A stretch of DNA of 64,000 nucleotides, from contig NC_042999.1 in assembly GCF_006345805.1 (NCBI RefSeq), forward strand, positions 49,104,001 through 49,168,000, given 5' to 3'. The translations under genes and the position numbers were made by a program. The notes below the pieces were generated by a model. That model had not been told where the DNA came from. It searched no databases and was given only the letters and a program-made list of their open reading frames with translations. Positions 15,809-17,124 of the stretch are shown in pieces; the first letter of the stretch is position 1, and each line of letters begins with the position of its first letter. Source of the DNA: Octopus sinensis (Eukaryota).

Positions 15809-16333
15809 TAATTTATATATAGAGGGCATTATTATACATACATGCCACACGCTAAGAGGGACAAAATTAGTCATTTCTACCAAAAATTTTACTAATCCTT
15901 TCCCGAAATGCAATTCGTAAAAGTCTGCCATTTACCGGATGTAATATATGTAAACTCAACCATGTGCTTCGTTGATGTTGATCAGTTAGTTAGCTGCTCG
16001 GCTTAGACGAGGTAGAGTCGTTTATATATAATACGTCCAGGCTTGCTGATGAATACAGAGGTATGAAATCACAGGTGATACAAGTCCATATTTTTAAATG
16101 TCTTACTTTGAAAAATTGCATTCGGTGGGATTAGAAAAATTTTTGGTAGAAATGACTAATTTTGTCCCTCTTAGCGTGTGGCATGTATGTATAATAATGC
16201 CCTCTATATATAAATTAATATGTTCAATAAGAAAGAATTATTTTCGAAATTTTTTCTCTTATGAGGTCTTTCACGCTATCTACCCGATAATTTCTTGTTA
16301 AGTTTTCCTTATTAAGAAGTTGTCCTTAATTGC
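15809..16333 (+). mobile_element. Fold-back HHR element, copy 1
   Basis: Arms 15809-15916 and 16115-16217 are inverted (about 70 bp perfect). The loop holds a TATA-like tatatataa and the HHR; a tail runs to 16333; (AT)n flanks both sides. Confidence 0.85.
16040..16086 (+). ncRNA. Canonical minimal type I hammerhead ribozyme
   Basis: GGCUUG / CUGAUGA / AUAC-AGAG-GUAU / GAAA / UCA-CAGG-UGA / UA / CAAGUC. All core residues are intact; predicted AUA cleavage after 16080. Confidence 0.85.
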
Positions 16334-16605
16334 TATATATATATAATATATATATATATATATATATATATATATATATATATATATATAATATATATAT
16401 ATGTATGTATGTATATGTATATATATATATATATATATGTGTATATATATATATATATATATATATATATATATATATATATATAGATATATATATATAT
16501 ATGTATATATATATATATATATATATATATATAGATATATATATATATATATATATATAATATTATATTATATATATATAATTTATATATATATATATAT
16601 ATATT

Positions 16606-17124
16606 ATTTATATATAGAGGGCATTATTATACATACATGCCACACGCTAAGAGGGACAAAATTAGTCATTTCTACCAAAAATTTTACTAATCCTTTCCCG
16701 AAATGCAATTCGTAAAAGTCTGCCATTTACCGGATGTAATATATGTAAACTCAACCATGTGCTTCGTTGATGTTGATCAGTTAGTTAGCTGCTCGGCTTA
16801 GACGAGGTAGAGTCGTTATATATAATACGTCCAGGCTTGCTGATGAATACAGAGGTATGAAATCACAGGTGATACAAGTCCATATTTTTAAATGTCTTCT
16901 TTGAAAATTGCATTCGGTGGGATTAGAAAAATTTTTGGTAGAAATGACTAATTTTGTCCCTCTTAGCGTGTGGCATGTATGTATAATAATGCCCTCTATA
17001 TATAATTAATATGTTCAATAAGAAAGAATTATTTTCGAAATTTTTTCTCTTATGAGGTCTTTCACGCTATCTACCCGATAATTTCTTGTTAAGTTTTCCT
17101 TATTAAGAAGTTGTCCTTAATTGC
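16606..17124 (+). mobile_element. Fold-back HHR element, copy 2 (near-identical tandem copy)
   Basis: Differs from copy 1 only by a few 1-nt indels. Confidence 0.85.
16834..16880 (+). ncRNA. Canonical minimal type I hammerhead ribozyme (copy 2)
   Basis: Identical to 16040-16086; predicted cleavage after 16874. Confidence 0.85.

What the first reader, a model, noticed from the sequence alone, without database searches (positions are those of the whole stretch)
15809..17124. Tandem pair of fold-back elements, each with a fully canonical hammerhead in the loop
Seen: an intact HHR (6-bp stem I, 4-bp stem II, stem III, AUA site) just downstream of a TATA-like motif, enclosed by ~105-bp inverted arms. 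It is present twice, 794 nt apart, separated by (AT)n. Inference: a read-through transcript would be cut at 16080 and 16874, releasing a ~794-nt unit that could circularise like a retrozyme RNA. This is the best candidate for a young, active element. The copies differ only by 1-nt indels, so an assembly duplication is possible.
Basis: partly seen in the sequence, partly recalled or inferred. Interest (0 to 1): 0.75.

Follow-up and report, generated by a model that had tools for sequence, protein, structure and literature searches.

The report
Two-armed Penelope-style hammerhead retrozyme insertion
This is one insertion, present twice in a row in the assembly, of a small repeat that carries a hammerhead ribozyme motif and no transposition gene; its fold-back is two back-to-back arms that end at two fixed sites, a footprint shared with a Penelope-type retrotransposon family of this genome, so such an enzyme likely copies it from a circular or multi-unit RNA.

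Summary
In detail: two near-identical fold-backs 794 nt apart, each with a type I hammerhead motif. The 794-nt RNA-unit idea does not. The element belongs to a dispersed family whose unit is about 458 nt (100 exact ribozyme matches; 4,311 with sister subfamilies) and which lies in (AT)n. The window copy holds less than one unit. The inverted arms are not terminal repeats: an insertion is two back-to-back arms, one ending at fixed site A and the other at site B, 129 nt further on (40 of 43 two-ended insertions; 16 of 20 in a second sample, none B/B). A Neptune-type Penelope family here follows the same rule (8 of 8, tail about 35 nt). The arms of one insertion share variants and mostly run through the ribozyme cut site, which points to a circular or uncut multimeric template. 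Best reading: a non-LTR retrozyme mobilised by a Penelope-like enzyme that primes each target strand at a different RNA site. The tandem is a later local duplication or an assembly error (undecided). No partner element, expression or cleavage was shown. The scan noted this kind of element and rule before on other DNA of this genome.

The parts
15726..15821 (.). (AT)n tract, left flank (target microsatellite)
15809..15898 (-). Copy 1, inverted arm: monomer positions about 48-137, outer end at site A
15898..16333 (+). Copy 1, direct arm: monomer 280-458 then 1-253, outer end at site B; joined to the inverted arm next to the monomer's own imperfect inverted repeat (15-42 with 289-316, 79%)
16040..16086 (+). 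Type I hammerhead motif, predicted cut after 16080 (AUA)
16180..16201 (+). Small hairpin just before site A, with two-sided changes in 3 of 8 pairs across subfamilies
16205..16333 (+). 129-nt 'tail' between end site A (16204) and end site B (16333)
16334..16616 (.). (AT)n tract between the copies
16604..16693 (-). Copy 2, inverted arm ending at site A
16693..17124 (+). Copy 2, direct arm ending at site B; four 1-nt deletions against copy 1 and consensus
16834..16880 (+). Hammerhead motif of copy 2, predicted cut after 16874
17125..17528 (.). (AT)n tract, right flank

Best explanation
The locus is one insertion of a repeat with a 458-nt hammerhead-bearing unit, made of two back-to-back arms that end at two fixed sites in (AT)n DNA, and it was likely written by a borrowed Neptune-type Penelope reverse transcriptase/endonuclease that would cut both strands of the microsatellite and prime one strand at site A and the other at site B of a likely circular or uncut multimeric RNA. 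Inferred steps: source arrays are transcribed; the ribozyme (possibly as a dimer or with protein help) may release monomers that circularise; each cDNA runs a variable distance, often more than one unit, and the two are joined with little or no overlap. When only one arm is made it usually ends at A. The second copy in the window arose after insertion, by local duplication between the (AT)n tracts or by mis-assembly.
For: Shown: family of 100 exact core matches, 0 in the reversed control, 4,311 with a looser core. Nine distinct head-to-tail monomers of 449-464 nt, consensus 458 nt, 33% GC; the 16335-to-15896 junction with its 20-23-nt linker is also in short-read contigs of 3 of 4 runs laid. 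Stem I and II covary: 95% of cells paired, 8 of 14 pairs with two-sided change, slid controls 22-44% paired (stem III was fixed by my search pattern, so untested). End rule: of 84 blocks at 80 sites, 45 had both ends at A or B: 42 A/B, 2 A/A, 1 B/B; 40 of 43 after dropping two tandem second copies, p = 1.5e-9 against 50:50; 35 of 38 among blocks holding the exact core. Independent samples: 20 sister-subfamily loci, 13 A/B read by eye, none A/A or B/B, 1 unresolved, 6 single-armed or fragments; 20 sites picked only for a B end, 16 with A opposite, none with B. An RT + GIY-YIG family with a 781-aa frame and a CxxxxCxxC linker ends in (AT)n and shows one short and one tailed end in 8 of 8 inverted pairs tested. 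The two arms of an insertion differ at 0.85% of 6,433 overlapping positions and share 69 of 124 variant positions, against 2.8% and 7% between insertions; opposite-arm units differ by 0-0.16% in three arrays against a mean 4.3% between insertions. 32 of 40 A arms and 27 of 40 B arms are longer than a cut linear monomer allows; 3 of 112 inner ends lie within 10 nt of the cut site. Literature: PMC11167929 shows in vitro that a Penelope protein cuts and extends both strands of AT-rich DNA, is predicted to be a dimer, and starts at two internal RNA sites that bound the genomic tail.
Against: No autonomous partner found: a profile of 22 segments hit only separate retrozyme copies in 60 endonuclease loci and 67 further loci, a small share of 5,029 candidates. 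The tail is 129 nt, against 30-40 nt in print and about 35 nt in the family tested here. PMC11167929 saw no difference in start site between strands in vitro. Cleavage is not shown: the fold is not the predicted minimum in any of five contexts (stem I probability at most 0.04), the 10.1-11.1 pair is A-U, and only 1 of 9 Xenopus retrozymes cut in vitro. Arm similarity could also come from gene conversion or from a shared source locus. Site A contains (TA)4, so its exact edge is blurred and it may attract priming by simple base pairing. Four two-ended insertions had one end elsewhere and 8 single-armed blocks end at B. A circle cannot be told from an uncut read-through multimer with these data.
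Confidence: 0.8

Rival explanations
1. One reading: the tandem pair is a functional dimer whose read-through transcript releases a 794-nt retrozyme RNA.
For: Two intact motifs in the same orientation 794 nt apart; if the tandem is real and transcribed, such an RNA could be cut out.
Against: Family unit is 449-464 nt; the fold-back junction occurs at 1 of 83 held sites; the unit would hold about 280 nt of (AT)n; the TATA-like motif is a 2-of-83 variant, and a start 25-30 nt after it would fall inside the ribozyme core (spacing recalled, not tested).
Confidence: 0.04
2. A MITE or fold-back DNA transposon with about 100-bp terminal inverted repeats that captured a hammerhead.
For: 89 of 90 complementary arms in a TA context.
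Against: The right arm is not terminal: about 115 nt of family sequence follow it. Arm lengths and junctions vary from insertion to insertion; 35 of 84 blocks have no inverted arm; head-to-tail arrays of up to about 20 units exist.
Confidence: 0.02
3. Penelope-mobilised retrozyme, but the A/B asymmetry comes from a single priming site followed by endonuclease trimming or repair of the intermediate, or from L1-style twin priming, not from two programmed start sites.
For: PMC8557442 section 6 ascribes the tail to EN-mediated resolution. Two insertions consist of the tail alone, stopping at A. A-arm inner ends lie near B slightly more than chance: 7 of 65 within 10 nt, p = 0.03.
Against: That excess fades at wider windows (p = 0.07, 0.12) and B arms do not stop at A (3 of 47); arms overlap widely in monomer coordinates, which simple twin priming on one linear RNA does not predict; two start sites are shown in vitro for another Penelope element.
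Confidence: 0.14
4. Side question: the second copy is an assembly artefact rather than a real duplication.
For: Four of four differences are 1-nt deletions in one copy; chance 2e-4 under the family's divergence spectrum, so they look like consensus errors. Both copies share the private junction and private substitutions. The unit is bounded by long (AT)n.
Against: Indel-only differences also mark ordinary young arrays in this assembly (L192: no substitution, 6 gaps), so they show poor polishing, not falseness. Similar whole-insertion duplications occur at three other held loci (L070, L143, L200), and recombination between flanking (AT)n could make them.
Confidence: 0.5

Closest known systems
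Metazoan non-LTR retrozymes (Cervera and de la Pena 2020, PMC7229834, passages seen; Li, Clavereau and Pollet 2026, bioRxiv 10.64898/2026.07.22.740005, parts 1-3 of 5 read)
   Same: Low-GC tandem units with a type I hammerhead, monomers to long arrays, thousands of motifs per genome, no LTR, co-occurrence with Penelope-like elements.
   Different: Unit 458-480 nt, above the 170-400 nt expressed RNAs of the 2020 paper but inside the 51-972 range of the 2026 preprint. Two-armed inverted insertions with fixed ends in (AT)n: 'inverted' and 'microsatellite' do not occur in the main text of PMC7229834 and the footprint is not described in the preprint parts read. Expression and circles are not shown here; no pLTR homologue found.
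Endonuclease-bearing Penelope-like elements, Neptune/Naiad type (Craig et al. 2021, PMC8557442, section 6 and passages seen)
   Same: 5'-truncated partial tandems, an inverted 5'-truncated copy, a tail often at one end only, (TA)n targets, hammerhead in the repeat.
   Different: No RT or endonuclease frame; tail 129 nt instead of 30-40; the one-end rule is counted here as near-strict (40 of 43; 8 of 8 in an autonomous family).
Poseidon element of the green anole, PAc (Frangieh et al. 2024, PMC11167929, parts 1-2 of 4 read)
   Same: Two internal start sites downstream of the hammerhead bounding the tail; both strands of AT-rich DNA used; ribozyme cleavage not needed for insertion.
   Different: Autonomous, other clade; no strand difference in start site in vitro, whereas the genomic copies here pair the two sites one each.

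Membership tests
Type I hammerhead ribozyme | Conserved core CUGANGA, GAAA, NUH with stems I-III | tested here: met
Type I hammerhead ribozyme | Covariation in stems | tested here: met
   Stems I and II: 8 of 10 pairs with two-sided change in 16 sequences; stem III invariant by selection of my pattern
Type I hammerhead ribozyme | G10.1-C11.1 closing pair of canonical motifs | tested here: not met
   A-U here; G-C in 6 of 54 distinct sister motifs; feature from PMC4209133
Type I hammerhead ribozyme | Self-cleavage | not testable with these tools
   Fold not minimal in silico; stem III is stable only as an intermolecular duplex, -11.2 kcal/mol
Non-LTR retrozyme | Head-to-tail units of a few hundred nt, each with a type I hammerhead, low GC | tested here: met
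   Family level: (33% GC); the window locus itself holds less than one unit
Non-LTR retrozyme | No transposition protein encoded | tested here: met
   Six-frame translation of the consensus gives only short frames, none like the Penelope loci held
Non-LTR retrozyme | Expressed as linear and circular monomer RNA | not testable with these tools
   Only contigs were on offer and no run was on record as RNA
Non-LTR retrozyme | Homology to the pLTR of a Penelope-like element | tested here: inconclusive
   No hit in 127 loci, a small sample of the genome's families
Penelope-like insertion footprint | Partial tandems, inverted 5'-truncated copy, tail at one end, microsatellite target | tested here: met
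Autonomous Penelope-like element | RT + GIY-YIG open frame | tested here: not met
   None in the element; present elsewhere in the genome
MITE / fold-back DNA transposon | Fixed terminal inverted repeats at both ends | tested here: not met

The most novel reading that the evidence does not exclude
A dimeric Penelope-type enzyme uses its two RNA start sites in fixed order, site A for the first target strand and site B for the second, on one circular RNA that it can read round repeatedly; this single rule makes the inverted arms, the one-sided tail and the instant tandem arrays of both Neptune elements and animal retrozymes, and these thousands of young copies are its in vivo record.
Probability: 0.45. 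Interest if true: 0.72.

Novelty: new variant of a known kind. Interest (0 to 1): 0.5.

Why it matters
How animal retrozymes spread, and how Penelope elements build their tandem and inverted ends, are stated as open in the papers read. A counted one-each rule, seen in a non-autonomous family and in an autonomous family of the same genome, ties the two and turns the in vitro finding of two start sites into a testable order of events. The family supplies a short RNA template, two mapped start sites, an (AT)n target and candidate enzymes with open 775-883-aa frames. This particular locus is not special: it is a partial copy whose tandem may be an assembly error.

Tried and rejected
Rfam gathering scan: no hammerhead hit, only a tRNA. 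Search for the autonomous partner by blastn and tblastx of the consensus and by nhmmer: none; apparent hits in L135, L136, L137, L238, L249 were separate retrozyme-like insertions. A Pfam accession recalled for a Penelope domain was not in the library. Classic twin priming (arm stops where the other starts): weak and not robust. Template as a cut linear monomer: rejected by arm lengths. A 67-codon frame in the monomer matched no Penelope locus; not followed further. Consensus fold of the tail across 13 sequences gave only two small helices; the long hairpins of the main subfamily were not recovered. Sequencing runs: no RNA holder listed; contigs of four runs guessed as RNA hold scattered family pieces, which I do not count as expression. 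Contigs of four other runs do not span the locus and cannot test the tandem; the four deletions of copy 2 were not listed, but family depth swamps them. Literature searches listed no paper on octopus retrozymes or on a strict pairing of the two ends; the library lacks most subscription papers, older Penelope papers were not read, and bioRxiv supplements are closed, so absence from print is not established.

Full report
What is at the locus. The window holds two copies of a 520-nt element between (AT)n tracts. Outside the tracts they differ by four single-base deletions, all in copy 2, with no substitution. Each has a type I hammerhead motif (16040-16086, 16834-16880) with a predicted cut after AUA at 16080 and 16874; my scan of both strands of the window found only these two. 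The arm 15809-15898 pairs with 16128-16217 at 89 of 90. About 115 nt of further element sequence follow the right arm, so the arms are not terminal.

The family. A search of the genome with copy 1 gave 215 matches from only 40 of 2,112 candidates scored. An exact 31-nt core pattern has 100 matches and none in the reversed control; a looser core with the same stem III has 4,311. Other loci carry head-to-tail units; nine distinct cut-site-to-cut-site units are 449-464 nt, consensus 458 nt, and sister subfamilies have units near 475-480 nt in arrays of up to about 20. The consensus folds as a circle at -116.5 kcal/mol against -85.8 +/- 5.6 for 60 shuffles. Copies are young: median 2.2% substitution over 86 segments. 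The junction that closes the unit is also in short-read contigs of 3 of 4 runs laid. In unit coordinates (1 = first base after the cut) the window copy is an inverted arm 137 to 48 plus a direct arm 280 to 458 and 1 to 253; positions about 256-279 are missing. So the 794-nt spacing is not the family's unit. The genome is probably an octopus: this comes from my recall of the neighbouring SINE and from earlier scan notes, not from a test.

The ribozyme. Across 16 subfamily representatives 95% of stem cells pair, 8 of 14 pairs change on both sides, and sliding the partners drops pairing to 22-44%; stem III was fixed by my pattern and gives no information. The motif is therefore conserved as a structure. 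Activity is open: pair 10.1-11.1 is A-U rather than the G-C that PMC4209133 calls typical (passages seen), the hammerhead fold is 5 kcal/mol above an alternative, and stem III is stable only as a duplex between two copies. The same paper describes dimeric action for motifs with short palindromic helix III. Only 1 of 9 Xenopus retrozymes cut in vitro. The TATA-like motif is a variant found at 2 of 83 held sites.

The end rule. I merged 100 loci into 83 sites, dropped three that repeat one insertion with the same flanks, and classified 84 blocks. Outer 3' ends fall at two places: A (unit position about 124) and B (about 253), nearly always followed by (AT)n. Of 45 blocks with both ends at A or B, 42 are A/B, 2 A/A, 1 B/B; without two tandem second copies, 40 of 43 (p = 1.5e-9). 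The loci favour B ends, but the blocks with the exact core give 35 of 38. Four two-ended blocks have one end elsewhere. Single-armed blocks end at A in 25, B in 8 (one of these is an array whose far end I did not hold) and elsewhere in 2; selection for the ribozyme favours A. Two further samples agree: 20 sister-subfamily loci gave 13 A/B by eye, none A/A or B/B, one unresolved, six single-armed or fragments; 20 sites picked only for a B end (from 635) gave 16 with A opposite, two tail-only insertions, one truncated, one with a very short fold-back at A, and no B/B.

The template. Where the two arms of one insertion cover the same unit positions (34 insertions, 6,433 positions) they differ at 0.85% and share 69 of 124 variant positions; arms of different insertions differ at 2.8% and share 7%. 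In three arrays, units on opposite arms differ by 0-0.16%, against a mean of 4.3% (0.6-7.2, 21 pairs) between insertions. 32 of 40 A arms and 27 of 40 B arms pass through the cut site and only 3 of 112 inner ends lie within 10 nt of it. The template is therefore not a cut linear monomer; a circle or an uncut multimer fits, and gene conversion could add to the likeness. Junctions show from a few bases of overlap to short inserts; arms do not reliably stop at the other start site, unlike L1 twin priming as I recall it.

The enzyme. GIY-YIG matches are abundant (147 listed of 150 scored, 5,029 candidates). Several families have a CxxxxCxxC linker before the domain, the Neptune/Nematis mark according to PMC8557442; two frames of 781 and 775 aa carry GIY-YIG and a weak RVT_1 match, and their 3' ends run into (AT)n. 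For one family I took the eight opposite-strand pairs within 5 kb among the first 100 of 635 end matches (a ninth pair 15 kb apart was not examined): all eight have one short end and one end with a tail of about 35 nt, and 20 of 24 unpaired ends are short. The footprint is thus that of Penelope machinery in this genome. No family homologous to the retrozyme was found in 127 loci, so the partner is unknown.

Comparison with print. The element fits metazoan non-LTR retrozymes (PMC7229834, passages; bioRxiv 10.64898/2026.07.22.740005, parts 1-3 of 5). [quoted passage not shown] PMC11167929 (parts 1-2 of 4) shows both-strand cutting and extension, a predicted dimer, two start sites that bound the tail, no strand difference in vitro, and uncut RNA as the main substrate. 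Five searches listed no paper stating this, within a limited library. Earlier notes of this scan report the same kind of element and the same rule on other DNA of this genome; I had written this reading before looking, and they are not independent support.

The tandem. Both copies share the junction and substitutions seen at no other held site, so they are one insertion duplicated. Indel-only differences look like consensus errors, but they also mark ordinary young arrays in this assembly, and three other held loci show similar duplications. Available runs are contigs that do not span it. I put artefact and real local duplication at even odds.

Verdict. Real element, known class, informative insertion footprint; this locus is a partial copy and not the best candidate for activity. 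Interest 0.5.

Noticed in passing
window 14059-15174, - strand: 3' end of a Neptune-type Penelope element (endonuclease C-terminus and 3' UTR, 70-89% like loci L240, L249, L253, L261, L263), ending in TA repeats about 700 nt left of the finding; not homologous to the retrozyme.
   Followed up: partly
window 15230-15660: Degenerate stretch whose translation resembles a Tc1/mariner transposase remnant; resemblance recalled, not searched.
   Followed up: no
window 32707-32789, - strand: tRNA-Leu(TAA) gene or tRNA-like copy found by Rfam and ARAGORN, next to a SINE-like repeat.
   Followed up: no
window 17377-17879, 27832-28208, 32300-32708, 42123-42540, 49204-49604, 61458-61868: Six copies of a common 400-500-nt repeat, 75-83% alike to the copy in L240, likely the octopus SINE (label recalled).
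   Followed up: no
L070, L143, L200: Three more whole-insertion tandem duplications (periods 898, about 580 and about 1,600 nt), two including flanking DNA; either a recurrent duplication process at (AT)n or a trait of the assembly.
   Followed up: partly
L181:105-243 and L185:4776-4914: Insertions made of the tail alone, from site B back to site A, between (AT)n tracts.
   Followed up: no
L147, L148, L152, L156, L157, L249: Diverged sister subfamilies (about 70% identity or less) keep the core, stem III and the A and B ends but carry an extended stem II; L249:215-647 is the most distant and has an altered core.
   Followed up: partly
L123, L131, L125, L162 3' UTRs: Neptune families carry minimal hammerhead-like motifs 100-220 nt before their 3' end, some with a changed core base; read by eye.
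   Followed up: no
table 2: Summed contig depths of several hundred thousand over parts of the unit in four runs of two organism labels hint that sister subfamilies are far more abundant than this subfamily; depth is not a copy number.
   Followed up: no
L123:5786-6728: A different fold-back element with a hammerhead-like core lies upstream of a Neptune frame; probably another retrozyme family.
   Followed up: no
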